Below, piece after piece: positions 1 through 37,300 of a DNA stretch of 64,000 nt. This DNA is from the human T2T-CHM13v2.0 reference genome, Homo sapiens: NCBI RefSeq assembly GCF_009914755.1, contig NC_060947.1; one strand, 5' to 3'. The stretch's first letter is position 1; the number at the start of each line of letters is the position of its first letter. The notes beneath the pieces were generated by a model that searched no databases, was not told the DNA's origin, and worked only from the letters and a program-made list of their open reading frames with translations. The position numbers and the translations under genes were made by a program.

Positions 1-73
1 AGTAGAGAGTCATAGAATATGAGTAAATACTAAACTCATATACACGATGCATAAAACACTATTTCCCTGTAAA

Positions 74-182
74 GCAGTAGACAATGAAGGTTCCTGCTCA
101 GAAACCATGGGGTATGAGCAGACAAGCATGCTGCATGCTCAGACAACCATGGTGCATGAGCAAAAACCTACAATATAAAAGC
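74..182 (-). ncRNA. MIR767: microRNA precursor mir-767 (5p at 134-156, 3p at 100-122)
   Basis: Reverse complement of 134-156 = UGCACCAUGGUUGUCUGAGCAUG (miR-767-5p) and of 100-122 = UCUGCUCAUACCCCAUGGUUUCU (miR-767-3p); the arms pair; location in GABRA3 intron 1 matches the known cluster. Confidence 0.97.
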
Positions 183-669
183 AGGTGGGTGTGATACAAG
201 AGTGAATAACACAATGAGGAATATGCCCAGATGGACAGGACATATGAATAAAGGAAACATAACACATGAATACAACTTATTTAGGCAAACAGCATATGAC
301 AATGATGCTGGAGGAGATATCATGGCACATACTCAGGCAATCATGGTGCATGAGCAACTAACACTAATATTTGACTGTTAAACCACGATGTACACCCAGA
401 TATCCCAACAAAAATAAGCTGATGACCATAATATAGGAGCAGATGAACAAGGATATTGAAGAAGATGCTGATAATAAAATAGCAGAAAACGATAGTGCAG
501 TAGCTAATAGAATACTACAGATGGCAACGATTCAAATGACTGCCATGGCATATACTTATATAATGATGCTTTAAACACTATCACAAGTATCAGCATTTGA
601 CCATAATGCACACTTAGAGAACTCCAGAATTTGAGCTGACAATTATTATACACGATCAAGGGACACAGT

Positions 670-726
670 ATCATTATCATCATTGTCATGTCATCATCAT
701 CATCATCATTGTTATCATCATCATCA
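670..726. repeat. (CAT)n imperfect microsatellite
   Basis: tcattatcatcattgtcatgtcatcatcatcatcatcattgttatcatcatcatca; abuts the 3' end of the minus-strand MIR. Confidence 0.9.
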
Positions 727-744
727 CTACCTGCCAGGCAGTAT

Positions 745-935
745 TAAAAATATTTTATGTATAATAGCTTATACAATCCTCACAATAACCTTACTACTTT
801 TTTTGTCATTTTGCAGGAAACTGAAGCATGAAGATACGAATTGATGTGTCCATTTCATGAACTGATGTGTCCAAGATCTCATAGCTAGTAAGTGGATAAT
901 CCAGGATTCAAATTCAGTCATTTTGGCTCCACTAT
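745..935 (-). mobile_element. MIR SINE fragment
   Basis: aatcctcacaataacc...ggaaactgaagc...tgtccaagatctcatagctagtaagtgg...ggattcaaa resembles the reverse complement of the MIR core. Confidence 0.75.
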
Positions 936-1064
936 CCATTATTGTAAATATGACAATAAATGACAATATGCTGTGATTCTTCTGACAGACATGATACCAG
1001 ATTTTAAAACAGAGCAGAAAAATGAGTGGCTTTGTTCCAGAAGCAGATGGCAATGTTGCAAAAG

Positions 1065-1145
1065 TAGACACCATAGCACATGCTCAAACATCCGTGGTGC
1101 ATAAGCAGCCACCACAGGAGTCTGAGCATTTGACCACGATGCACA
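1065..1145 (-). ncRNA. MIR105-2: microRNA precursor mir-105-2 (5p at 1111-1133, 3p at 1074-1095)
   Basis: Reverse complement of 1111-1133 = UCAAAUGCUCAGACUCCUGUGGU (miR-105-5p) and of 1074-1095 = ACGGAUGUUUGAGCAUGUGCUA (miR-105-3p). Loop GCUUAUGC and 3' flank CUAUGGUG match my recollection of copy 2 rather than copy 1, which should lie just left of the window. Confidence 0.95.
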
Positions 1146-2615
1146 CACAGAAGATCTGCAACATGAGCTGATACCAGGTTATAGGGAGTAGACAGATGAC
1201 AAAGGACAGAGAAAACTCATCACAATAGTGAAAGACATGGTGTAGAAATTAATATACATAGTACAAAATACTCATTCCCAGTACAAGTAGACAATGATTG
1301 TGTATTTTCACACAAGTGTGGTGTTTAAGTTTAAATACGTAGTACAACTTCAATCACAGTATATGAGCACAAATTCATTATGTATGTTTATATTATCATG
1401 GAGAATAGGTCAATTCATACATGAAAAAGGGGATAGATATGGTATCCCAGCAAAGAATCACAGAGTAAAAACTGCTCAGGTGATACAAAAAATACGGGTA
1501 TGTATGGCATTTTGTCAAAAAGAAGATCAAAATAATACAGGATGTTCAGATGAATAAGATGCCAAAAAGCATGTTTTAATATGTGTTCATGAGGTCCAGT
1601 CAGACACCTACAGGACATAGGCTATCAATTATGACACAGGTGCAGATGGACATGATATGGAAATAAAACATGGTGTGATTCTTACTTGGGTAGATATGGT
1701 ATGTAATCAAAAATAACCATGCAAGCAATTAATGACTTTGGCCCAAGAGAAGATGACAGTGGTACAAAAAAAAGACTCACATGGACATAATGACTCATAA
1801 AAAAAATAACCATGGTGATTGACTCTACACATTTGTGTTTGGGCATGATATAAATCCAAACGATCCCATTACACAAACTAACAGCTATGATACAGTTAGT
1901 AAGCATGATACAGGAACAGACAGCAAATATGGAGAAAATACCCATTCTGCAGGAGCCAGTGACCACAATTCAGGAACTAATATTCATGTTATTAAAGTTA
2001 TCATTCTCCACACAGAAGGAGATTATGTTTATTTTTTACACATTAATGATGGGTGAGCAATATCTATGATGTATACACAGAGAATCAATTAGTATACACA
2101 TACAATACACAAGCAGTTGGCTATCCTTCAGGAGTGGTATCCATTCAGACGCATGTCCCTATCCGATATCCACAATACTGAATCAAGTTTTCAGTTAAGG
2201 ATAAGATGACAGTGGTGCAAAATGACACCTCATGCCATATGCTCAGATGGCTCTTTTGTTTGAGCATCTGATCATGGTGCACAACTTAACAACCATAAAA
2301 TGTGAGGTAATGAATGATAATAGAGAAGACTATATCCCAAGACTATATCGCTGTAAATACGCAAAATACAGGAACAGTTGGATATAGTACAAGAGCAAAA
2401 AGCAATGTTGAAGTAGGAGCCCGACATGACTGATATATGAGCTAGTAACATGCTGCACAGTGTGATAACCATGACATAGAAGTTGGTCAATCACAGATCA
2501 ATCTCAAACATCAGTGATATATGAACAGAGAACTAAGCTGTAGTGCTTCCTCGGATGAACACATGCCTAATTTAAAAGCTATAACATAAAAGCAAATGTC
2601 TCCAAATGTAAATGC

Positions 2616-3063
2616 TATTATGGGTTGAATTGTGTTCTACAAAAGAGGGGCACTGAAGTTATAACTCCCAGTACCTGTGGATGTGACTTTATTTGGTAAT
2701 AGGGTCTTTGTAGATGTAATCAAGTTAAGATGCCTTTATAATGGATTAGGGTCAGCCCTAAATCCAATCACTGGTGTCTTTATAAGAAGGGGGAAATTTA
2801 GATATAACAGACAACGAGAGAAAACCATATGACAATGAAGTTAGAGATTGGAGTGATGCTGCCACAAGCCAAGAAACACTTGGGATTACCAGAAGCTGAA
2901 AAATGCAAGGATGACTCCTTTGCTAGGCTCGAGAGAGAGCACGGCTTTACTGACACTTTGATTTAGAACTTTTAGCCTCCAGAACTGTGAGAAAAACATT
3001 TCTGTTGTTTTAAGCCACCTAGTTTAAAGCACTTTGTTGTGGCATCCTTGGGAAACAAATACA
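2616..3063 (+). mobile_element. MaLR solo LTR, MLT1B/MLT1C-like
   Basis: Starts tattatgggttgaattgtg; contains gatgtaatcaagttaagatg and ccagaactgtgaga; ends gggaaacaaataca. Confidence 0.85.
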
Positions 3064-3891
3064 GATGACATTGTTACAAAAGGACTCTGAGACATGTTTA
3101 AATGACTGCATGGTGTATAAATATCTCCCCCTGTAGTTTTACCACCTGAACAAAAATCACACTCAGAAAACCCCTAAATATTATCAGGAAGTCATGATGT
3201 ATGAACTGACAGCCATAGTACAGTGTGCTCACAATCATCTATTATTAGAAGTAGAGAGTAGTAGAATCATCCAAATACCTTGTGACTATAGTCAACATTG
3301 TACATGAGGATACTACATTGATATGTTAAACAATGCAACATGCCAAGAAAATAATTCATGAGTTGGAAATCACAACACAATAGCCTTAAGCTCCGGGACA
3401 GGTGTATACCATCATGGTAAATGTTCAGATAAACTTTAAACAAGGTAAATTGCACCTAACACAGAAGTCACTGGCTCTGGCTTGATACATGGGCAAATAT
3501 AACTAACATGCTTGAAAATCATGACATATGACATCATAAACATGGTTCACGTTCATGTGCATAAACTCTTCTTATATAGGAGCAGATACTTATAATTCAG
3601 GATCAGAAGGCCATGGTGCTTGCTTGGATACCTAAGCATGCAGAATCATATTACAGTGACAAAGGGCAATACTTCAGGGAAAGATAACCATAGAATCACG
3701 CAACATATCATGTTAACACAGCATTGGTGTGTGAGCCAAAGGCCATGGTGCAAGAGTAGGTTACCCTAAGTCTAAAGGCATACAATCTCTGCAGAAGCTG
3801 GTCCCAGGGAAATGCACTGAGGAGTGAAGGCATATTTGGCTTCTATAAGAGACGGCTTGTGAGAACCACACTCTTTACACCTTCTGTGGCT

Positions 3892-4003
3892 TCAGTGATC
3901 AAATAACTTATGGCCAAAACTTGGACACTTTGGAAAAAGCAAACTTTAATATGCCAAGATAATAGGTGTAAACCAGGACTATAGTAGACATATGGTCACC
4001 CTG
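3892..4003. mobile_element. hAT-Blackjack non-autonomous element (MER94-like)
   Basis: aaaacttggacacttt...ggtgtaaaccaggact...catatggtcaccct terminal motif. Confidence 0.55.
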
Positions 4004-4424
4004 CCTATGGTCATTTAAGATTTCTCTTCAACCTGATAACCAAACAAAAATCTTTTTCCTTTTTAGAATATCCTGCAAATGCTATTTCTAACAGAAGCAG
4101 AAGCCACAGGTGACAGGTTATGCTTCAGGTAGGAAATGTTCTTGATCACATCAAAACTCTAGATCTCGGGGAGTAAACAAACTCTACTTATTACTACCCT
4201 CTTAAAGTCCTCTTCACTCCAGACTATTTGTATTCCGAATAAACATTTAGTACTTCAGCCATTCAGCAATATTGAGAAAAAATCTTGAATGATCCATCTA
4301 TGACTTTGCCTCGACCATTAACCTTTCTAAAATATACTTATTTTCCCCTATTTTATTTTTCTTTTCTTTCTAATTTTCTTACACGAAAGGAGAAATTTCT
4401 CCTGTTTATTATGTCTCTTCAACT

Positions 4425-4560
4425 TCTCTCAGAGCACCATTTCTCACATTTATGGATCGGGCACAATAACCACCTTATCGAGCTGTCGGGATTAAATAAG
4501 ATACTGTCGAAGTATCTATCCCAAGGTGAAGCATGTAGTAGGTGCTTGGTGACAATGTCA
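4425..4560 (+). mobile_element. MIR fragment
   Basis: ctcagagcaccatttctcacattta...gggattaaataagata...gtaggtgcttgg; degenerate MIR 3' half. Confidence 0.5.
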
Positions 4561-5329
4561 TCAACAGCACTATTACTCTGTCATCAAGTCCTTTGCTGCT
4601 GGGCTATCACAATTGACACCCTCTAAGGCTACCCTGACTGTTAGGAATGGCCCAGGGCCATTCTGCAGTCTTTATTTGGGTGACTTTAGTTATAATCTCT
4701 TCCCTCAGGATCAGACCATTAGCTTTTATGTCTACTTGTGGCCACAACTGCAACCTCCTTTCCTCTTGGTTTCAATTCTGCCTCAGCCTAAGGAAACAAA
4801 AAAGATTCCCAAGCATGCCTAAGTCCTGTTTAAATGGGTTAGGCTCTGAATAAGGTCAGATAGCTCAAGTGGCTTGGCTTTCATATTATATCTGCCAGCT
4901 GGAGTTTTTCCACCTTTTTTTTTTTTTTTTGGCTCTACAGCCCTGTTCTGTTCCTAAGGGCCAGGCCCACAAGGGATACTTCAGAACCACCAATCTATTC
5001 CTCCAGATGACACAGCAGACCCTAAAGAGAATTGCTCTAACTTAAATAACTTCTAACCTCACCATTTTTCTGGCCCTTCCCAGCCTTTGGCTGTGGTTCT
5101 TATGAGAGGGAGGACAGTGTTGACCCATATGTCATTGGTTCTAAACTAGCTATGATCTCTTTGTTACTGCCACCCATCTAACAACCTGAGGCTCTTAGAA
5201 AACAGAATGAAGGGTATAGAAAAAAAACTATTAGGAAAGAGACATATTTTTCTCCTTTTATATAAAAAGTACAGAAGTTTTGAAACAATTCAGATTTAAT
5301 TTGCTGATATATGTTTCTACTTAGACAAA

Positions 5330-5605
5330 CATTAAATTCTATAACATACATAATGTCAACATAGGAAAATACCAAGTTTGTGATTGCACATACCAATAAA
5401 TAAATACATTTGCTCAAGAATATTTTTAAAAAAAGCATACAACCATGTTGTGTGCTCAGAATACCATAGTACACAAGCAAACAAGCATGGAAGAGAATCA
5501 GGTGGTTACAGTTAAGGAACACAGAAAAGAAGCAATCATGGTGTGGGAATGTGTCTCCAAGATGTGTGTGGAGATAGTCATGATATATCAATATGCACTC
5601 AGCCT
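5330..5605. repeat. Outlying island of the same 21-bp repeat
   Basis: AGCATACAACCATGTTGTGTG|CTCAGAATACCATAGTACACA|AGCAAACAAGCATGGAAGAGA (5434-5496) in exact 21-nt phase. Confidence 0.65.
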
Positions 5606-5864
5606 GCAAGGGGATAAAACATTTTACTTTCTCAGAAGAAGCAAAAAGAATTTGATTGATGGCTTGGGGAGAACTAATTTCTGGTCAGATAATCTAGTTC
5701 CCAAGAGGCAAGCTTCCTACTCTATCTAGTAAAGACTCACACAGATCAGGGCTGAGGAAAGAGACAATCTCAGTCCTAATTCTTGGAAGTATCTTAAGAT
5801 AATAGAGGTGTGCCATCACAGCCACTCAGGCTAGGTGAGTATAATGCTCAAACAGACACAAGTT

Positions 5865-6852: not shown

Positions 6853-7189
<337 letters not shown>

Positions 7190-7848: not shown

Positions 7849-7913
7849 CTTAGGCTCTTTATCTCTAACAGGAGGATAATAGTTCTTTCTTTTGGAATGT
7901 GTGATGATTTAAT

Positions 7914-7918
7914 GTGTG

Positions 7919-7952
<34 letters not shown>

Positions 7953-7962
7953 AACACATATA
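7914..7962. repeat. (TA)n(CA)n compound microsatellite
   Basis: Direct reading. Confidence 0.9.
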
Positions 7963-8064
7963 CTCTACAAATTGATTAGAGTACACAGCATGCACTGAGT
8001 ATCCAATAAGTGGCGGCAAGTGATGTTACATTAATATAATAAATTATATCTGTGCTCTTATGAT

Positions 8065-27811: not shown

Positions 27812-28011
27812 CAGTAAGTCCTCACCTTAATGTTGTCAGTAGGTTCTTGGAAACTGCAATTTTCAAGGAAACAACATACTGTAAGCCATAGAAATTTACT
27901 CGTTTATATCAATTAGCTTATGGTAAAATTGGTTTTGTTATATAGTATGCTGTTTCCATGAAAGTCATAGTTTCCAAGAACCTACTGATGCCATTAAGTG
28001 AAGACTTACTG
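27812..28011. mobile_element. Tc1/mariner-Tigger MITE (MER6-family-like)
   Basis: Terminal inverted repeats cagtaagtcctcac.../...gtgaagacttactg extending ~70 bp; TA target duplications at 27810-27811 and 28012-28013. Confidence 0.85.
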
Positions 28012-29360
28012 TATATATATCCTTAAATATATACGTGTGTGTTTGTATAATGTAAAACAATAAAGCTTCTAGAGGATAACATAGGATAATATCTTCATGA
28101 TACTGAGGTAGGCAAGTATTTCTTAAATGGAACTAAAAAGTATTAACCATAAAGTAAAAGTCTGATCAACTAGACTAAATTAAAATTAAGAATATCTGTT
28201 CATCAAAAGACAATACAAATAAGAGTGAAAAGGCAAGCCCCATGGGGTGGGAAAAGATAACATGCAATACATATATTTGACAGAGGACTAGTATTCAGAA
28301 TATAAAGAATTATAAATCAGTAAAAAGCAAATGGTGACAATTGAATAGACTAATGAACAAATTATTTGAATAAACTTTTCAAAAAATGTTTAAGAACATC
28401 CAAATGGCAAATAGCATATGAAATTATGATCAATCTCAAAAGTCATCAGGGAAATGTAAATCTAAATTACTATGATAAGATACCAAAACAAGCATATTAT
28501 AATATCTAAAATTTAAATGTATAACAGTAGTAATTGGTGGGCAGGATGGAGAGCCATAAGATCTTTCATACACTGCCAGTGGATGTGTAAATCTGAACAA
28601 AAACTTTGGAAACTTCTTGGCAGTATCTAATAAGTTGAAAATATGCATACCCTATGACCCCAAAATTCTCATCTTAGTTATACAGACAACAAAATGTGGA
28701 CATGTGTTCAGCAAAAGAAATGTATACAAATGTTTTATTGCAACATTACTTATAATAGTATCAAACGAGATAAAACTTAAATGTCCATCAACAGTAGGAG
28801 GGATATATAATTGTGGTATATTTATAGAAGAGACTACTACATAGCACTAAAAATTAATGAACTATAGCTTTTGCAACAACGTGGATGAATCTCAAAATCA
28901 TGTTGAATAAAACAAGCCATACACAAGAAAGTACATACTGGAGTATAAAGAATATTATTCGACTTATATAAAGTTTAAAAACAAGTGAAACTACTATAAG
29001 AAATCAGGATATTAGTTATCTTTGTGGGGGGAGTATGGACAATGGCCAAGAAAGACATAAAGAGATGGTTCTGGGGTGTTAATTTTTTTTTTATTTTCTG
29101 ACCCTGATAGTGGTTACATTTAACAAAAATTCATTGCGCTGTACAATTAGGATTTTGCATTTTTTCCATATATGCTATACTTCAATTTAGAAAGTTTTCT
29201 TTAAACAAAACATCTATTGAAAAGAAGACCCGAGTAAATGGAAATATAGCACGTTTCTGACTGGAGAGAGCGAAATATTTTATAGATACTAGTGGTTTCA
29301 AGATTTTCTATAATGTAATGTACTTCTAATAAAATTCCCAACACAATATTCTTAAAGATT

Positions 29361-29645
29361 GAGGAAATGTTGCTCAAAGGATACAACATTTCAGTTCAAC
29401 GGTAGGAATGAACTTAAGAGATCTATTATACAACATGGTGACAATAGTCCATGACAATCTATTGTATATTTGAAACTCGCTAGAAGAGTAGATTTCAAGC
29501 AATCTCACCAAAAGGATGTGAGGTAATACATATGTTAATAAATATGTCTATTTAGACATTCCACAATGTATACATATTTCAAAACATCATGTTGTATGCC
29601 ATAAATATGTACATTTTTCATTTGTCAATTAAAATAAATTAAAAA
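29361..29645 (+). mobile_element. L1MA (MA7-9-like) 3' end
   Basis: aaaggatacaacatttcagtt...gagatctattatacaacatggtgac...aaaacatcatgttgta...ttgtcaattaaaataaa. Confidence 0.8.
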
Positions 29646-30439
29646 CTTGTCAAGCTTAAGGTTTATAAGAAAATGCTTGTAATTATATTTTGAAAAATGC
29701 TATGAGAAGATATTTCATCTAATAATGAACAACAAATACTATAAAACTAAAGAAATGAAGCATTGTAGTACTAGAATATTTGTGTGTCATGATGTGTATG
29801 CACCAAAACACTGGTGATAGGTGTTGCCTCCTCACAGGGGAACTTGTTGACACTTGGGCACAAATGGTAAAGAGATTTACTTTTCACTGTAGACATCTTT
29901 GTACTTAATTATGACCCTTGCGCATGAATTAGTTATTTTAACAAACCTGACAAATTTAAAGTTTGGTACTGAGGTAAAAATAGAAAAAGAATAAGTGAAA
30001 TTAAATCAAGGGTTCCAGGAATAGATTCATATGTATACAGGAATTTAGTGTAGGATGAAAGAACAATTTATGACCAATGAGGAAATTATGAAGTATTCAA
30101 TAAGTTGCACTGGACAAATGTATCCTTTTAGAAAATAAAGTTAGGCTTTTATGCACAATGGAATAAAATGCTACTAAATGTGAACAACAAATACTGAATA
30201 TATTAAAATATTTAGGAGCACATTTTTATGAACTTGGGAAAGATGAAGATATTTCTGTACACTTTAATTTTACACTTCTCTGTAACAAAAAAATCAATAA
30301 TGTTTGAGCTAAGCAACAGACTAGGGTTTAGAAGAAAATATCAACATTCCTGATATATGAGGAGCTAATATGAATCAGTAATTAAAACATCAAAGAAAAT
30401 ACAAAATTGAAGAAAGGATGTGGACAAATAATTACCAAG

Positions 30440-30535
30440 GATATTGGTATTACAATTGGATTACAAATGGAATATACAAATGGATAACAAATGTAATATT
30501 ACATTTGGATATTACAAATGGATAACAAATGTAAA
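30440..30535. repeat. Short degenerate tandem repeat (TTACAAATGGA-like units)
   Basis: tattacaattggattacaaatggaatatacaaatggataacaaatgtaatattacatttggatattacaaatggataacaaatg. Confidence 0.7.
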
Positions 30536-30759
30536 AATATATTCAACCTCAATAGCAATCATAAAAATACACACTAAAACAATATTTTAAAACTGTGGGA
30601 AGATAACTAATATATTAATTTGAAAGTTAGCTATTTTAGGGTTGTGGGAAAAGAACATGATTCATAGGGATTGTAATAAGAACAATTTTTGTATTGTGTA
30701 TCTTTATTTTTCATTTTATTTTTGAACTGTGTGATTGAATTAATTTTCTCTAGATCCCA

Positions 30760-31240
30760 GCATTCTCCCAAAATCAAATAATCTTCCATCATTCCCTATC
30801 TCAGTGAACAGTACCATCATCTACCCAACTGCAGAATCAGAAACCGACAAGTCATCTTTCACATCTCCCTTTCCAACAGCCCCCATGTCTATTTCGTCTA
30901 ACTTTTTATCAATTTTACCCCCTAACACCCCCTCAAAAACATTTATTTCTCTTCACATTGTTCACCACAACACTAGTTCAAGCCATTACAAACTCACTCT
31001 TGGCCACTGCTAAAGCCTCAATCACACAATAACTAAGCATCTACTTTGTATATGACACTGTGCTAACTGGTTTTCTGGAATCTACTGTTGTCTCCTTCTA
31101 ATCCATCCTACACAGTAGCCAAGTTTAGCATTTCATAACCTGATTTGTCAGCAGCTCCCCCACCACTTGAAATGCTTCAATGGCTTCAAGAGTAATCTTA
31201 AAAATAATGAAAATTATTAGCATAGGCAAAACTTAACATT
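30760..31240 (+). mobile_element. L2 fragment
   Basis: ttccctatctcagtgaacagtaccatcatctaccca...ccttctaatccatcctacacagtagcc...cttcaatggctt. Confidence 0.65.
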
Positions 31241-31394
31241 GTACATCTAAATGATGTCAGGCCAATTTTCCCCTACCCCACCCCAAAGTAGCTGCCATCA
31301 CCATCGCCAGCTACCCTGGTATAAGCTGTTTTTATCATTCATCTTCACTACTATAATATGCTTTTGGTGTGCCCACAGTGGTTTTATTTAAATG

Positions 31395-32340
31395 TTTTCT
31401 TTGTTTTTACTTTTTGTTTGGCAATAATTTCAAACTTCCAAACGAATTCCAGAAATAGAACATACTCTTTGTCCATATGCACAATTTCTTAACATTTGTC
31501 ACATTGTATCTGTATACTTGCAAATACTTCATTGTATATTTTCTTTTTCTTTTCTTTTTTTTTTTTTTTTTTTTTTTTTACAGGGTGTCATTCTGCCACC
31601 CGGGCTGGAATGAAGTGGCACAATCATGGCTCATTGCAGCCTTGACCTCCCAGGCCCAGGCTCAAGCAACTCTCCCACCTCTGCCTCCTGAGTAGCTGAG
31701 GCTACAATATGCTCCATCATGCTCAGCTAAGGTTTTTTTTTTTGTAGAGACAGAATCTTGTTACGTTGCCTAGGTTGGTATCAAACTCCTGGACTCAAGC
31801 AATTACCTACCTCAGCCTGCCAAAGTGCTGGGATTACAGGTGTAAGCCACCATGCCTGGCTTGTATTTTTCTAAAGAACAATATCACACTTGTATATAAC
31901 CCACTTATATACAATTACCAAAATCAATAAACTTATCATTGATACAACACTGTCATCTAATCTAGAATCCATATGTACGTTTCAACAATTGTCCCAATAA
32001 CGCTCTCTATAGTGATTTTTACCCGTCTAGGTAAATGTGTGATCCAATGTAGGATCACACCTTTGGTTATCATATCTCTTTAGTCTCCTTTAGTCTGGAA
32101 CATTTCCCCAATTTTTCTTTGTCTTTCATGAAAATGAAATTTTTAAAGAGAAAAGATCAGAATGTCCCTCAATCTGAGTTTGCCTGACGTTTTCTCATGA
32201 TTAAACTAGGGTTATGGGTTCGGGGAAAGAACACTATCTAAGTAATATTGTGCCCTTAGTGCATCACATCAGGAGACACATGATTGTTTTTTATGTTGTG
32301 ATGTGATGTTTGATCAGTTGGCTAAAGTGGTGACTTTCAA
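31395..32340 (-). mobile_element. L1MC4/5-like 3' fragment (reverse orientation), split by an Alu
   Basis: ataatttcaaactt...caattgtcccaataa...gtctcctttagtctggaacatttccc...gtgcatcacatcaggagacacatg. Confidence 0.7.
31541..31860 (-). mobile_element. AluJ
   Basis: Poly(T) followed by reverse-complement dimer ending catgcctggc; TSD-like ttgtatattttct / ttgtatttttct. Confidence 0.9.
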
Positions 32341-32399
32341 CTTCTGTCCTGGTTTCTGCTTGTACTCTCGCACCTGGAGGAGAGCTGTCCTTATCTGCT

Positions 32400-34385
32400 T
32401 ATCTATTCCTACTCTGTCCCCTTTCCCTGATGTACTTCTTGAATAAAATATGTTTCTTCTTATCTCAGAGCCCATGTGTAGGCCCAGAAAACTCTTCCTC
32501 CTCTCAATTTGCATGGCAGGCTCCTTTTCATCCTGTAGGTCCAGGTTAAATAGTATCTTTTTAGAAATCCCATCTCCTTTGCTTTCCACGAACACAGAAC
32601 TTTGTGTGTTTTCTTCCTATGACTTCTTATAATTCCCAATTATTTATTTATGTAATTAAAATTATAATGTCTGTCTTCCCCTACTAAACTATAATTGTGG
32701 AAATGAGGAGCTAGTATTATTTAATGCCATCCAAGAAAGGTCAGATTCTCTCCCTTAACTCAGAATCTGGCATTTTAAGACACAGCTAAGAGTAAAGGAA
32801 ACACTTTTGAGTCACACAGAAACCAAGTTCAAATCCCAGATCAGAATAACTGCATATGACCTTGGACTTCCTCATATGCGAATAGTGGATACCATCACCT
32901 ACCTCACTGGGTGGGTAGGATTATATTCTTGTAAAACAAACTAGAATCATGTTTAGTATGTAAAGGAAGCTGCACAAGTGATAGATAGGGTTAATCTTCT
33001 TTCTGGATTAAGAGATATCCAGTCTTCATAAGAAGCACTCTTACAATCATACTGCTTAGTTTGCTATGTATTCACAAGTACAGGTGAATTGATTAACTTG
33101 CAAGAGTTAGTTGCAAGTCTCTAACAGTCAACACTTCATACTCAATTCTACTCTAGATCCAACCCTGTGGTGGGCATGGTGAGATTCTATCTCACTTCTA
33201 AGAATTCCCTTGATGAAAATCAGTTTCTCCAAACAGGTAGGTATACCTCCGCTGTACTTTCTCTGTCACTTCCTTTCTCCGTACTTTCTTCGTTGCATTC
33301 CTTATTCGAAGTGGTTTAGCATTAGTTGTTTCTATGTGTCTGAGTTTATCTCCCACTAGATTTTGGCAGAATAATAATAATAGAAAAATGATAAGAGCAA
33401 ATATATCTCTAACACTTAACTATCATATTTCATCTAAGTTGCCACAAATTTTCAGATACAACAATATTTTTTATGCCACTAGCACATTAAATGTGCTGCC
33501 AAATAAACAATGATATGTCATTGATAGCTAAGAGTCATACTTATTTGGGAAATATTAAAATATGGGAAGAGACTGGGCTTCTTAAAATTGTTGAAACATG
33601 ATCTGTGTTAGGCACTGTTCTAAGCACTTTATATTTATTAAGTTATTTAACCCTCACAATAACCCAATACGGCAGGTATGTTATGCTGCCTCCTCATTAC
33701 TGTTCTCCATCTCCTTTGGCACCACCATAGATGAAGTCATCATTATTATCTCTCACACCTAATTCTCCCTCTATAGCTACTTTTGACTTCTTTGACAATA
33801 AATCCATTGCCTGCTGCCAGAATCAGCTTTGAAACCTGCAAATCTGACTATGTCATTCCCTGTTTAAAGTCCTTTAATGACTCCTCTATGACCTTGGAAT
33901 AAGGCCCAAACACTGCATTGTACTCTGTATCTCTATTTTCACATCTCATTCTGTACACTCCAGCCATACTGACCTTCTCTTACTTCCTAGAATGCAGCAT
34001 GAATTTTGCCATTATCAGGGCCTTCATGCAACCTTTTCCCTCTCCCTGGAATATTCTTACCCATCTCTCTCCCTATCACTACTGAAATGGCAAACAGCTA
34101 TAGATCTTTACATTCTAAGCTTGAACATTACTTCATTAAAGAAAATTTACCTGTCATGTTCCCCACTAACCTAGGTCTGCTTTTTAATTTCTTTATAACA
34201 CTTTCTGCTACTTTTCCACAGCATTCGGCTCACCGGAAAATTACTTTTTCAAAGTATGCCTTCCCTTTTAGATTGCGAACTCCAAAAAAGCAGGGGCCAG
34301 GTCTATCTGAGTCACCATTATATCCTTAACTTCTAGCACAGTCAGCTGATATATTTCATATACTCAATAAATAGATGCTAAAATG
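32400..34385. mobile_element. Cluster of L2 and MIR fragments
   Basis: MIR-like 32790-32980 (ccaagttcaaatcccag) and 33600-33680 (ggcactgttctaagcacttt). L2-like 33690-34385 (aaatctgactatgtcattccctgtttaaa...tactcaataaata). Confidence 0.6.
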
Positions 34386-37300
34386 AAAGCTAAAACTTTC
34401 TGTTTCTCACCAAGAAAACAACGAATGCCCAAGGAAGAGGTTCATGAAGTGGAATTTGAATTTATCTGAGTTCTGCAGAGATCAATAACACAAGAGATCT
34501 AATAAGCAAACACTGAATTTGTCAGCTCTGGCCACAACATCTACAGCCAAATCCTGGCTGGCGCTTCAGCACACCAAAACATCTGGAGAGCTGTCACCCA
34601 TCCATATATATTGCTTATATTACCCTAAACATCTTTTTATGAGAATACAGGTAATAGCTAAAAGTATTCTTGTACTTGCCCCTGCAATGTACTTGGCAAA
34701 GCAATGACGCCACTTAGAGATTCACAGACCTACCAATTAGATACAATAATTTAAGAAGTAAATCACCAAGGAAGGAGAGACACCCTGTCTCATTTGTATA
34801 ATCTCCGCAGGCTGCTGGCCCAATATACAACTGGCCCCGTCCTAACAGTGCACTGACTCATAGTCCCTTCTAACTCAGCACCCAGATTCCAAAACATGCA
34901 CCCTGCAGACAGTGATTCAGAGCCCTGGCTGCTATGCGGTGGCGTCCCTCCTCTCATCCAAAGAGCTACTCTCAATAGTAGTCCCTGGGGCTGCAGTCAG
35001 ACAGATGAAGCTGTACGCTAAAGAGTAACTGCAGATTTGTAGTTTGTCCCCAGGGTACAGGAGCTATAAACAGGAATGTGCAATGTGCATAGTTCAGGCA
35101 ACCTGCCTTTATCTAAAAGTGGAGAATCTGCAGACTAGACACAAAAACAGAGGAAGGTTGCATTAATATATACCAATTTCAGCCTCCAGCCCCCACTGAG
35201 CATATAACCAGGAGCATTGTTGTAGCATAGATACTGCCCAGGATCCCCAAATGCTTGTGGAAACTGTGTCATTTATAGATTCCTAAACAGGCACTCAGAA
35301 AGCAGGAGGCAATCACTCCACAAGTAAAGATGACAGTGAGTTCTAAAATTGAGTATTTACTTATTTCTGCTTGGGTGTTAATGCAGCTGGAATGCCACTT
35401 GTACAATGAGATACTTTTTTTGCAAACATTTGGCAAGCATACACCCACTACTCAAGAGCAAGAGAGGTTTTTTCTCAAGTTAGTCCCAGCTGAAAACTGA
35501 GAAAGATGGATTGAAAGCAAGCCAGAAATTGAAGAAAAACAATAGACCACTGAAAATGAAGAATGCACTTAATGGGTCACCAATGTGGAAAGCAAAGAAA
35601 GAAAATGGAGTGACTGATTATGGGATCCCAGCACAAGAACACAGCCAAGCCCTTGTGTCACTGGAATAAAGCAGAAGATTGGAGATTAAATATGAAAGAA
35701 TTGAATTAAAAGAGAGGTAAGAACGATATCTGAGTCCCCATAGGTGAGTGAGACAGGTCAGGAAAACTGGTAGGAAATAAATTTAAAGAAGGAAATGCAG
35801 GGAAAAGTACAAGTTCAGCCAGACTTCCTAGTGTTTGCTAAATATTCCTTCCACTACTTCTATTAATCTACCTCCAATATACCTCTCAAACCCATGGTCT
35901 CTCTCTCCCTCCCTCCCTCCCTCTCTTTCTCCAGATTACCATTTTAGCCAAAGCAGCATTACTGGCCTCACATTCACTTCAGCCGCCCTTCTGCAGCATT
36001 AACCTATTCTTCACACAGCAACCAGAGGGGGCCATAAAAATGCGAATCAGATTGCTTTACTCCCTTGCTTAAAACTATTCAAAGGCTCCCTACTGCTCTT
36101 GAGGGAAAGACTAAACTCCTGAATTTGACCTACAAGGTCCTTTAAGATCTAGCCAAATCACGCCTTCCCACCTTAGAGATGACCTCAAACCATGGCAAAA
36201 CCTCCATTGGCTCCATTCACCCCTCCTGAAACAATCAGAAACATTGTCTTCAACCTAAAAATAGTTGTTTTGTCATCTAATTTTCCTATTTCCATTTAAA
36301 GTTCAAACATCAATCTGGCAACCACAACTTCTTCACACTCCTGTCTTCTCTTCTTCCTGTCTGTCACAATAAGACTCTCCTCCTGAGGTAACCATTGCCA
36401 CTCACCTGACCTACAAAACTTCCTTTGATACCAATGGGGGCCCTAGGTTTAGGCAAGTCCAATGTTCCTGATCCCAGAGTCAAAAACACCTGTCTGCTTA
36501 ACCTAACCTGAGTGGATCCATATCTCTGTTGCTTCACAACATAGACTGATACTCAGATATGTGAATGTTGCAATCTATGATTACAGATTAAGTATAGAAA
36601 ACTAATCATAGAGAATTCTTCATAACTAAGTTCCCAAATGTTGAGTAGCCATTATTTGAAGGAGAATTTATTATCCATCTAAAAATCCTGAAGGATTATC
36701 ATGTCAAGCTAGTAATTTGAGTTCACACAGGAAAAAAATCCCCCTCTCTCAGCTTCAAACATAGAATATAGTGATGACAACTAAATCATAAAACATACAT
36801 TAAAAAATAAAAACACAACCACAACTGTTAAAGAAAAAATAAAATATGTCCATGCAGCTGAAACAGAAAAATGAACTCAGCAATAGGCTGGGGATGGGGT
36901 TGGAGAGAATAAAACCACTTACCCACTGGGAAACAGGAAGAGGCAGCCAGAAGTTCAAGTACTGTGGGGTAACATAAACCAATAATATTGAATATATGGT
37001 AGGGTAGCAAAGCTAGATCACTGCAGGAAACCAGACGATGAGGCAGGGAACTCCTAGGCAGAATAACTCTAAAAATGCTATGACCAGCCCAGGAAGCTGA
37101 GACTGGCAACTGGGGTGTTGCCCAGGTAGGCAGTAGAGATAGTTATGCAACTAAGACTTGCATCACGCCAAGCACTGCCTCAAAAACTTGACCTTTGATA
37201 TCTTCAAGGAATAAAAGCCCCAAACTGACAACATAAAAAGTGGTTCTGAACTAGGGACTGATCACAGTATTGCATCTATGAAAAAAGGACAAGTTGCCAT

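What the first reader, a model, noticed from the sequence alone, without database searches (positions are those of the whole stretch)
1..3790. MIR767 and MIR105-2 are carved out of an ancient self-complementary 21-bp tandem array (a fossil miRNA-generating array)
Seen: the hairpins are not unique sequence but runs of 21-nt units sharing a consensus close to AGCAGACAACCATGGTGCATG, with alternating AGCA/CTCA unit starts. GCTCA-GACA-ACCATGGT-GCA-TGAGC is a near-palindrome: ACCATGGT is self-complementary and GCTCA pairs with TGAGC. Any 3-4 consecutive units can therefore fold back, and the period equals miRNA length. The same units continue degenerately for ~3.8 kb (cores at ~342, 1237, 1669, 1811, 2273, 3109, 3612, 3744). 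Inference: two miRNAs classed as separate families share one origin, and the array supplied hairpins of which a few were fixed. Established analogy: the eutherian 14q32 mir-379/656 cluster arose from an amplified repeat unit. I do not recall this being described for mir-105/767, but I cannot check the literature.
Basis: partly seen in the sequence, partly recalled or inferred. Interest (0 to 1): 0.82.

Follow-up and report, generated by a model that had tools for sequence, protein, structure and literature searches.

The report
Decayed 21-bp repeat array spawning MIR105/MIR767
The human microRNA genes MIR767 and MIR105 sit inside an old, badly eroded array of 21-base repeats, are built from its units by one shared pairing rule, and are surrounded by about a dozen dead copies of the MIR105 hairpin.

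Summary
A directional, very degenerate 21-bp tandem array (unit CAGACAACCATGGTGCATGAG) runs from about 5.5 kb left of the window to window position 5636. Two old insertions interrupt it, at 2606-3065 and 3803-5433. The signal persists outside the hairpins: lag-21 z is 3.4-5.1 and wraparound alignment z is 9-27 against shuffles. The array sequence has no other copy in the genome.

MIR767, MIR105-2 and MIR105-1 all lie in register with the array. Their base pairs follow one rule in unit coordinates, (i+j) mod 21 = 20 or 0. The fold axis is at the unit core in MIR767 and at the unit junction in MIR105, half a unit apart.

- The general unit is not a near-palindrome. Only ACCATGGT is self-complementary, and the reverse-complement consensus fails to align.
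- The array as a whole folds no better than control DNA.
- The other hairpin-like sites are decayed copies of one ~110-bp mir-105 module, 11 in all, plus a ~2.2-kb block duplication. They are not independent hairpins.

Ten literature searches found no description of this. Cross-species dating was not possible. It is a new member of the repeat-derived miRNA clusters.

The parts
1..2605 (-). Main block of the degenerate 21-bp tandem array. It continues leftwards outside the window to about -5511. The miRNA-sense strand is '-'.
   Evidence: Wraparound alignment 31-3800 scored 436.6 against shuffles 61.3 +/- 15.6. It extends to -5511 with score 1044.6. Hairpin-free parts 1321-2199 and 2301-2600 gave z 13.3 and 7.8 against 40 shuffles. 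The forward consensus scored 972.0 against 24.2 for its reverse complement.
74..182 (-). MIR767 precursor. It consists of three near-consensus units (99-118, 119-139, 140-160) plus flanks. The fold axis is at unit position 10/11 of the middle unit. Annotated mature arms are 134-156 (5') and 100-122 (3').
   Evidence: Rfam mir-767 at 86-171(-), 111.4 bits (gathering 90). The units match the consensus at 18, 17 and 21 of 21 positions. Fold -41.6 kcal/mol, z -6.56, 0 of 200 shuffles as good. 30 of 39 pairs have (i+j) mod 21 = 20 and 7 have 0.
1065..1145 (-). MIR105-2 precursor. It spans four array units (1065, 1085, 1106, 1127). The fold axis is at unit position 20/21, the unit junction. Annotated mature arms are 1111-1133 (5') and 1074-1095 (3').
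   Evidence: Rfam mir-105, 108.9 bits (gathering 68). Fold z -6.13, 0 of 200 shuffles as good. 22 of 29 pairs have (i+j) mod 21 = 20 and 7 have 0. 79 of 81 bases are identical to MIR105-1.
291..400 (-). Best-preserved dead copy of the mir-105 module.
   Evidence: Rfam mir-105 at 314-394(-), 44.1 bits, E 3.8e-7, below gathering. 70% ungapped identity to 1042-1151 at lag 751, against at most 38% at +/-21, 42 and 63. It no longer folds: z -1.00.
509..618 (-). Weak dead copy of the mir-105 module.
   Evidence: Rfam mir-105 at 536-612(-), 24.7 bits, E 0.12. Identity 0.42 at the best lag against at most 0.37 at neighbouring registers, which is marginal. Fold z -0.18.
2201..2310 (-). Dead copy of the mir-105 module.
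   Evidence: Rfam mir-105 at 2222-2283(-), 23.2 bits, E 0.3. Identity 0.48 against at most 0.40 at neighbouring registers. TGCTCA at 2240, TGAGCA at 2261 and CATGGTG at 2273. Fold z -1.86.
1..1345 (.). In-window part of copy B of a ~2.15-2.19-kb tandem block duplication. Copy A is window -2250..-850 and holds MIR105-1 and a dead MIR767 copy at about -2039..-1972.
   Evidence: The global alignment scored 176 against a null of 4.3 +/- 1.8 (20 shuffles). It is collinear at lags 2132-2194, with 58-72% identity per 100 columns and 96% at the MIR105 block. The dead MIR767 copy folds at z +0.26 (last row).
2606..3065 (.). Old interspersed repeat inserted into the array. From recall it looks like a MaLR-type LTR; that label was not tested.
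   Evidence: 6245 first-look candidates genome-wide. The 40 off-locus matches listed are 69-77% identical. No array signal inside: wraparound z 0.6, lag-21 z -1.5.
3066..3800 (-). Array block to the right of the inserted repeat. No hairpin relic was detected in it.
   Evidence: Wraparound score 102.2 against 21.4 +/- 5.7 (z 14.2) and lag-21 z 5.1. No other genome match. CATGGTG at 3109, 3612 and 3744.
3803..5433 (+). About 1.6 kb of non-array DNA inserted into the array. It has a single paralogue on contig C11. I infer that it is an old retrocopy fragment, from AATAAA at about 5398 and an A-run just before the array resumes.
   Evidence: 3803-4554 matches C11:8186094-8186833(-) and 4575-5422 matches C11:8185266-8186076(-), both at 75% identity and each the only off-locus hit. 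3801-4600 has wraparound z 0.0. Sequence read.
5434..5636 (-). Last recognisable array block.
   Evidence: Wraparound score 45.6. 4601-5700 gave z 12.2 against 40 shuffles. 5434-5505 matches 117-188 (MIR767 units) at 69% over 72 nt. TGCTCA at 5411 and 5453, CATGGTG at 5537.

Best explanation
Intron 1 of GABRA3 holds the remains of an old, locus-specific minisatellite. About 9 kb of 21-bp units lie head to tail in one orientation, spread over about 11 kb.

The unit carries an 8-nt self-complementary core (ACCATGGT). Its junction hexamer TGAGCA has as its exact complement the variant junction TGCTCA. Where the two junction types alternate, the transcript of the '-' strand can fold on itself with every pair obeying one rule in unit coordinates, (i+j) mod 21 = 20 or 0. 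That rule has two possible fold axes per unit. MIR767 folds about the unit core and MIR105 folds about the unit junction. I infer that the two 'families' are two registers of one repeat.

A ~110-bp, five-unit module that already formed the mir-105 hairpin was then copied many times within the array. A ~2.2-kb block carrying both hairpin types was duplicated once. Selection kept three hairpins and the other copies decayed.

Shown here: the array, its extent, its strandedness, the register of the hairpins, the pairing rule, the module copies and the block duplication.

Inferred: the order of events (array first, then hairpin, then module copies), and that the GABRA3 / CT-GABRA3 transcripts, read on the '-' strand, deliver the hairpins to the Microprocessor.
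For: Array:
- TRF finds a 21-bp period. Lag-21 z is 7.9 overall and 3.6-4.6 outside the hairpins.
- The wraparound score is 436.6 against 61.3 +/- 15.6, and 1044.6 over -5511..3800.
- Hairpin-free parts give z 9-27, while the two inserts give z 0.6 and 0.0.
- Without any alignment, AACCAT, CATGGT, ATGGTA and ACCATG are among the six most enriched hexamers in 6728 bp of hairpin-free array.
- Degenerate cores lie exactly 21 nt apart 6 times, against 0.1 expected.

Locus-specific: genome searches with 74-182 and 3066-3800 hit only themselves. 183-1064 hits almost only through its ATC microsatellite.

Hairpins in register: units in MIR767 match the consensus at 18, 17 and 21 of 21, and units in MIR105-2 at 14, 17, 13 and 11 of 21.

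Pairing rule and the two axes.

Shared unit.

Module copies:
- Nine weak Rfam mir-105 hits lie on the '-' strand. Two reach 44.1 and 39.3 bits.
- Against the 1042-1151 module, 10 of 11 relic copies show a register clearly better than the neighbouring ones: identity 0.45-0.70 against at most 0.41 at +/-21k.
- 73.2% of cells still pair when the MIR105 structure is laid on 14 aligned copies, against 28-46% when the partners are slid.

Block duplication.

Host intron and expression: Loriot 2014 (PMC4164501, passages seen) places both miRNAs in the first intron of GABRA3.
Against: - The excess over chance per unit is small. Hairpin-free units match the consensus at 10.73 of 21 on average, against 9.93 for best paths in shuffles and 9.61 inside the inserted repeat. 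Individual units are therefore not reliable.
- Lags 42 and 63 are weak. A once-uniform array must have suffered many indels, or it was never uniform.
- A lag-21 signal of z about 3 also appears at 4900-5350, inside the inserted chr11-like DNA. Window-level z of about 3 alone is not proof.
- The three units of MIR767 all resemble the same near-consensus unit of the mir-105 module. Lags 945 and 966 tie at 0.50 identity, and the flanking units match nothing. Whether MIR767 descends from a mir-105 module is open.
- RNAalifold finds no consensus structure in the copies, and 7 of 7 relics folded give z between -1.9 and +0.3. Nothing shows they were ever processed.
- No other species was examined.
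Confidence: 0.75

Rival explanations
1. Hairpin first. A single mir-105-like hairpin arose in unique sequence. The whole region is the product of repeated segmental copying of that hairpin and its flanks, and the 21-bp periodicity merely echoes the hairpin's internal make-up.
For: About a dozen mir-105-type module copies with a unique register are spread over -4600..2300. The copies share both arms, so their ancestor already folded. One ~2.2-kb block duplication is shown.
Against: - A hairpin gives inverted symmetry, not direct symmetry. Yet the hairpins themselves consist of direct 21-bp repeats.
- Stretches without any detected module copy are clearly periodic and match the same unit: 1321-2199 at z 13.3 and 3066-3800 at z 14.2.
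- Apart from the A/B pair, no collinear large duplication was found in the 6 further block pairs tested.
Confidence: 0.15
2. MIR767 is a hairpin-shifted daughter of a mir-105 module, not an independent product of the array. Gain of one 21-nt unit after the module's fourth unit gave the old 3' arm a new partner and moved the fold axis.
For: MAFFT aligns the MIR767 locus to the 13 mir-105 modules with a single gap of exactly 21 columns. The 5' arm of MIR767 matches the 3' arm of MIR105. Lags 945 and 966 tie, as expected on either side of an extra unit. Hairpin shifting is a described route of miRNA change (PMC3308325, passages seen).
Against: All three MIR767 units best match the same near-consensus unit of the module. 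The units flanking the hairpin (57-98 and 161-202) match the module at no register, at most 11 of 21. Generic unit likeness explains the alignment equally well.
Confidence: 0.3
3. The periodicity is chance, a base-composition effect, or a known interspersed or satellite repeat.
For: The region is A-rich. Shuffles of it score higher (61) than the rest of the window (at most 48). A z of about 3 occurs in non-array DNA. RepeatMasker/Dfam could not be run.
Against: - None of 30 shuffles reached a quarter of the observed score, and none of 40 shuffles per part came near it.
- Permuted consensus units scored 35.9 +/- 28.7 (max 151.0) against 436.6.
- There are no other genomic copies, whereas the true interspersed insert gave 6245 candidates.
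Confidence: 0.03

Closest known systems
Eutherian 14q32 (DLK1-DIO3) mir-379/656 cluster, said to derive from an amplified repeat unit (recalled from the literature, not read here)
   Same: Many paralogous hairpins on one strand of one transcript, embedded in tandemly repeated DNA, with birth and death of copies.
   Different: Here the basic unit is only 21 bp, shorter than a hairpin arm plus loop. A hairpin therefore takes 3-4 units, and two fold registers exist. Only 3 hairpins survive, and 11 copies are dead.
Microsatellite-built miRNA families such as mir-297/466/467/669 (recalled)
   Same: Hairpins made from short tandem repeats whose units can pair with each other. Within this window, a (TA)n(AC)n microsatellite at 7893-7963 gives sub-threshold hits to the mir-297 and mir-466 models.
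   Different: Those rest on 2-8-nt repeats of low complexity. This is a 21-nt minisatellite with a defined core and junction.
[quoted passage not shown]
   Same: The unit that forms the 3' arm in MIR105 forms the 5' arm in MIR767. The fold axes lie half a unit apart.
   Different: Direct descent of MIR767 from a mir-105 hairpin is not shown. Both may have been drawn separately from the array.
Rfam families mir-105 (RF00670) and mir-767 (RF01033)
   Same: The annotated genes meet both gathering scores.
   Different: Rfam lists the two without a common clan. The data here argue that they share a source.

Membership tests
Tandem repeat (minisatellite) array | Head-to-tail periodicity beyond chance, also outside the selected hairpins | tested here: met
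   Lag-21 z 3.6-4.6 outside the hairpins. Wraparound z 9-27 in hairpin-free parts.
Tandem repeat (minisatellite) array | The same unit recovered without using the hairpins | tested here: met
   The majority consensus of 314 hairpin-free units is CAGATAACCATGATACATGAG, 18 of 21 identical to the TRF unit. The top enriched hexamers are core words.
Tandem repeat (minisatellite) array | Phase kept over several units (lags 42, 63 and beyond) | tested here: inconclusive
   Lag 42 is 0.294 and lag 62 is 0.299 against a baseline of 0.2775 +/- 0.006. Lag 63 is 0.279. This could reflect decay by indels or an array that was never uniform.
Self-complementary (palindromic) repeat unit | The reverse complement of the unit is a rotation of the unit | tested here: not met
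   The reverse-complement consensus scores 24.2 against 972.0. By direct inspection of the consensus, only ACCATGGT (8 of 21) is self-complementary.
Self-complementary (palindromic) repeat unit | Stretches of the array fold better than shuffles or control DNA | tested here: not met
   Array mean z -0.15/-0.13 against control 0.00/-0.14. Only the three annotated hairpins stand out.
Known interspersed repeat | Many dispersed copies in the genome | tested here: not met
   Only self-hits for 74-182 and 3066-3800. 183-1064 hits almost only through its ATC microsatellite. The method misses very old copies, and no Dfam search was possible.
mir-105 (RF00670) | Score at or above the gathering score of 68 bits | tested here: met
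   MIR105-2 scores 108.9 bits and MIR105-1 scores 110.2 bits. The relics score 23-44 bits, below gathering, so they are not members.
mir-767 (RF01033) | Score at or above the gathering score of 90 bits | tested here: met
   111.4 bits at 86-171(-). A weak 22.7-bit hit lies at 282-365(-).
Repeat-derived miRNA cluster (14q32 type) | Several paralogous hairpin-bearing repeat copies on the transcribed strand | tested here: met
   Thirteen mir-105-type modules were aligned, 2 live and 11 dead, all on the '-' strand. There is also a dead MIR767 copy.
Repeat-derived miRNA cluster (14q32 type) | Array and hairpins present in the orthologous locus of other eutherians and absent, or present without hairpins, in outgroups | not testable with these tools
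   No other mammalian genome is held. Only Hertel 2006 (PMC1388199, passage seen) gives copy numbers: dog 3, human 2, others 1.

The most novel reading that the evidence does not exclude
A minisatellite older than its two inserted repeats acted as a birth-and-death source of miRNA genes. Its 21-nt unit carries a built-in pairing rule with two possible fold axes. One axis gave the mir-105 hairpin and the other gave mir-767, so two miRNA 'families' with unrelated seeds are registers of one repeat. On this reading the dozen dead modules were once processed miRNA genes. There is a hint: 41 further standard pair types against 34.2 +/- 2.6, reached by 3 of 500 shuffles.
Probability: 0.4. Interest if true: 0.65.

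Novelty: new member of a known kind. Interest (0 to 1): 0.55.

Why it matters
This locus gives a concrete, checkable account of how new miRNA hairpins can arise from a short tandem repeat. The repeat needs a small self-complementary core and two mutually complementary junction variants, and the choice of fold axis then yields miRNAs with unrelated seeds.

It argues that mir-105 and mir-767, listed by Rfam as separate families without a common clan, share a source.

It supplies about a dozen dated 'dead' paralogues at one locus for studying miRNA gene death.

Both miRNAs are studied in cancer (PMC4164501), so the structure of their host intron also matters for reading variation and small-RNA mapping at this locus.

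Tried and rejected
- TRF at minimum score 30 finds only the 3 units inside MIR767. The rest is too diverged for it.
- A de-novo unit search over five regions timed out. It was replaced by hexamer enrichment and per-part shuffles.
- De-novo seeds in 4601-5700 gave only A/T-rich units. That stretch later proved to be mostly chr11-like inserted DNA, so I no longer count the lag-21 signal at 4600-5400 as array. It remains unexplained.
- Coding origin of the 21-bp (7-codon) period: only 5 ORFs of at least 90 aa in 1-5700, the longest 143 aa with a TTG start. Not pursued further.
- Further large collinear duplications: 6 block pairs tested, none above null.
- RNAalifold on the 14 module copies predicts no structure.
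- Notes of earlier sessions were closed.
- Literature: 10 of 10 searches used. None returned a paper on the origin, repeat structure or kinship of mir-105 and mir-767. One search was badly ranked: none of its 15 listed papers holds either miRNA name.
- Papers behind subscription, MirGeneDB, miRBase family pages and Dfam could not be consulted. No supplements were opened.
Full report
**1. The observation**

I read window 1-4200. Tandem Repeats Finder at its lowest score threshold reports one 21-bp array, at 99-162 inside MIR767: 3.1 copies, 75% matches, consensus CAGACAACCATGGTGCATGAG.

The periodicity is not confined to the hairpins. Against 200 dinucleotide-preserving shuffles, lag 21 is the top lag in four of the five array stretches tested, second to lag 3 in 183-1064:
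- 1-3790: z 7.9
- 183-1064: z 3.6
- 1146-2619: z 4.3
- 3066-3790: z 4.6

In 600-bp sliding windows over all 64 kb, 13 of 317 windows exceed z 3, and 11 of those lie in the first 5.6 kb.

A wraparound local alignment to the unit gives one continuous alignment over 31-3800 with score 436.6. The controls were far lower:
- 30 shuffles: 61.3 +/- 15.6, max 97.8
- 30 permuted units on the real sequence: 35.9 +/- 28.7, max 151.0
- the rest of the window: at most 48.4

The motif occurs 12 times in the extended region against 1.1 +/- 0.9 in shuffles.

**2. Extent and interruptions**

The assembly is searchable. MIR105-1 lies 2193 bp to the left of MIR105-2, and I fetched 20 kb of left flank. With it, one alignment runs from window -5511 to 3800 with score 1044.6.

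Scoring the parts separately against 40 shuffles each:

| Part | Wraparound z |
|---|---|
| -5511..-3961 | 27.4 |
| -3799..-2341 | 13.1 |
| -1949..-1221 | 9.2 |
| 1321-2199 | 13.3 |
| 3066-3800 | 14.2 |
| 2601-3065 | 0.6 |
| 3801-4600 | 0.0 |

The first null stretch (2601-3065) is an old interspersed repeat. It gave 6245 first-look candidates, and the 40 off-locus matches listed are 69-77% identical. From recall it looks like a MaLR-type LTR.

The second null stretch belongs to a 1.6-kb piece, 3803-5422. This piece has a single paralogue on contig C11 at 75% identity. It ends in AATAAA and an A-run just before the array resumes. I read it as an old retrocopy fragment, which is an inference.

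A last array block lies at 5434-5636.

In total, about 9 kb of array is spread over about 11 kb and broken by two old insertions. By inference, the array predates both.

**3. What kind of repeat it is**

The array is directional. The forward unit scores 972.0 over -5511..2600, and its reverse complement scores 24.2.

The array is very eroded. The 314 hairpin-free units match the unit at 10.73 of 21 positions on average. Units fitted inside the inserted repeat match at 9.61, and best paths in shuffles at 9.93. Their majority consensus, CAGATAACCATGATACATGAG, still agrees with the TRF unit at 18 of 21 positions.

Two alignment-free checks agree:
- The hexamers AACCAT, CATGGT, ATGGTA and ACCATG are among the six most enriched in 6728 bp of hairpin-free array.
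- Degenerate cores lie exactly 21 nt apart 6 times against 0.1 expected.

Phase decays fast. The match fraction is 0.330 at lag 21, 0.294 at lag 42 and 0.279 at lag 63, against a baseline of 0.2775.

The array is specific to this locus. Genome-wide searches with 74-182 and 3066-3800 return only themselves. The search with 183-1064 listed 150 of 175 matches:
- All but one of the off-locus matches fall on the ATC microsatellite at window 664-734.
- One weak match falls at query 689-749.
- One match is to the MIR767 unit in the locus itself.

**4. The hairpins in the array**

Rfam finds:
- mir-767 at 86-171(-), 111.4 bits
- mir-105 at 1065-1145(-), 108.9 bits
- MIR105-1 at 110.2 bits

All three precursors lie in register with the array.

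I mapped each predicted base pair to unit coordinates. All three hairpins follow one rule:
- (i+j) mod 21 = 20 for 30 of 39 pairs in MIR767 and 22 of 29 pairs in each MIR105.
- (i+j) mod 21 = 0 for 7 pairs in each hairpin.

The fold axis is at unit position 10/11 (the core) in MIR767 and at 20/21 (the junction) in both MIR105 genes. The two hairpin types are therefore the two possible fold registers of one repeat.

The unit that forms the 5' arm of MIR767 is the one that forms the 3' arm of MIR105:
- 134-162 matches 1079-1107 at 86% over 29 nt.
- It matches the MIR105-1 equivalent at 90% over 29 nt.
- Unit 140-160 matches at 17 of 21 and 18 of 21 positions.

**5.

The general unit is self-complementary only in its 8-nt core. 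The junction helix needs TGAGCA opposite its complement TGCTCA. TGCTCA occurs 11 times, against 3.7 +/- 2.1 in shuffles, and 6 of the 11 lie in hairpins or relics.

The array as a whole folds no better than control DNA. This was tested with 90-nt windows, step 15, and 15 shuffles each:

| Region | Mean z (+/- strand) | Fraction below z -2 (+/- strand) |
|---|---|---|
| Array | -0.15 / -0.13 | 7.6% / 8.2% |
| Control 28000-36130 | 0.00 / -0.14 | 6.9% / 6.3% |

Only the three annotated hairpins stand out. With 200 shuffles each, they give z -6.56, -6.13 and -5.49, and 0 of 200 shuffles fold as well.

**6. Dead copies and higher-order structure**

The mir-105 model also gives nine sub-threshold hits outside the two live MIR105 genes, all on the '-' strand. 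The best are 314-394 at 44.1 bits (E 3.8e-7) and window -3901..-3818 at 39.3 bits. Its only '+' strand hit lies on MIR105-1 itself.

Self-BLAST links the 1042-1151 module to many places between -4600 and 2300. These are not just generic unit likeness. Ungapped identity to the module is 0.45-0.70 at one register and at most 0.41 at registers shifted by 21, 42 or 63 for 10 of 11 relics. The copy at 509-618 is marginal, 0.42 against 0.37.

I aligned fourteen sequences: 2 live mir-105 modules, 11 dead ones, and the MIR767 locus. With the MIR105 structure laid on the alignment, 73.2% of cells still pair. Slid controls give 28-46%, and column shuffles give 70.9 +/- 1.1, reached by 12 of 500. The common ancestor of the copies was therefore already a hairpin.

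RNAalifold finds no shared structure today, and 7 of 7 relics folded have z between -1.86 and +0.26.

One large duplication is clear. Window -2250..-850 aligns collinearly with -100..1345 at score 176, against a null of 4.3 +/- 1.8. Identity is 58-72% per 100 columns, except 96% at the MIR105 block. Comparing 700-bp blocks around the two MIR105 genes in the same call:
- 79 of 81 bases are identical within the hairpin.
- 373 of 552 ungapped columns are identical outside it.

The left copy carries a dead MIR767. Flank divergence of this size suggests an old duplication, not a human-specific one. That is an inference. Hertel 2006 (passage seen) counted 2 copies in human, 3 in dog and 1 in other mammals. 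Six other block pairs showed no collinear likeness.

**7. MIR767 and the mir-105 module**

MAFFT aligns the MIR767 locus with the modules using one gap of exactly 21 columns. This fits gain of one unit followed by a hairpin shift, a process described in PMC3308325 (passages seen).

However, all three MIR767 units best match the same near-consensus module unit. Lags 945 and 966 tie at 0.50, and the flanking units match at no register. Direct descent is possible but not shown.

**8. Mechanism**

The region lies in intron 1 of GABRA3, read on the '-' strand. This rests on the hub annotation and on Loriot 2014, PMC4164501 (passages seen). The intron transcript carries the array, and three stretches still fold into Microprocessor-type hairpins.

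Shown:
- the array, its register and its pairing rule
- the dead copies
- the block duplication

Inferred: the order of events, namely array, then a foldable five-unit module, then module and block copies, then decay of all but three.

**9. Known or new**

Ten literature searches found nothing on a 21-bp array or on kinship of the two miRNAs. One search was poorly ranked.

I could not consult Dfam, MirGeneDB, miRBase family pages, subscription papers or supplements. Rfam lists the two families without a common clan.

The general kind is known from recall: miRNA clusters that grew out of tandemly repeated DNA, such as 14q32 and the microsatellite-built mir-297/466/669 group. I file this locus as a new member of that kind. 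Its notable twist is a 21-nt unit whose two fold registers give two seed-unrelated miRNAs.

No other species could be examined, so the dating remains open.

Noticed in passing
window 3803-5422: A 1.6-kb stretch has exactly one other copy in the genome, on contig C11 at 8185266-8186833 (minus strand), at 75% identity. It ends in AATAAA plus an A-run and sits inside the array. It looks like an old 5'-truncated retrocopy. The parent gene was not identified.
   Followed up: partly
window 4900-5350: Lag-21 autocorrelation of z about 3.0-3.2 lies inside the chr11-like insert, with no likeness to the array unit. It may be chance or a feature of the parent sequence. It remains unexplained.
   Followed up: partly
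window 2606-3065: An old interspersed repeat with 6245 first-look candidates genome-wide. The copies are 69-73% identical over about 400 bp. It is absent from the hub's list of the longest masked stretches.
   Followed up: partly
window 664-734: An imperfect (ATC)n microsatellite lies inside the array (TRF 670-726, 19.3 copies). It is the source of nearly all off-locus genome hits for 183-1064.
   Followed up: yes
window 7893-7963: A (TA)n(AC)n microsatellite gives sub-threshold Rfam hits to mir-297, mir-466 and mir-1277 on both strands. It illustrates how simple repeats mimic repeat-built miRNA families.
   Followed up: no
window 7013-7162: An Alu-like element gives a Metazoa_SRP hit at 65.8 bits (below the gathering score of 70), plus sub-threshold mir-3135 and mir-1268 hits.
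   Followed up: no
L004 7961-8046 (window -2039..-1954): A dead paralogue of MIR767 in the left copy of the 2.2-kb duplication. It keeps TGAGCA, TGCTCA and CCATGG in the same order and spacing as MIR767, but folds at z +0.26.
   Followed up: yes
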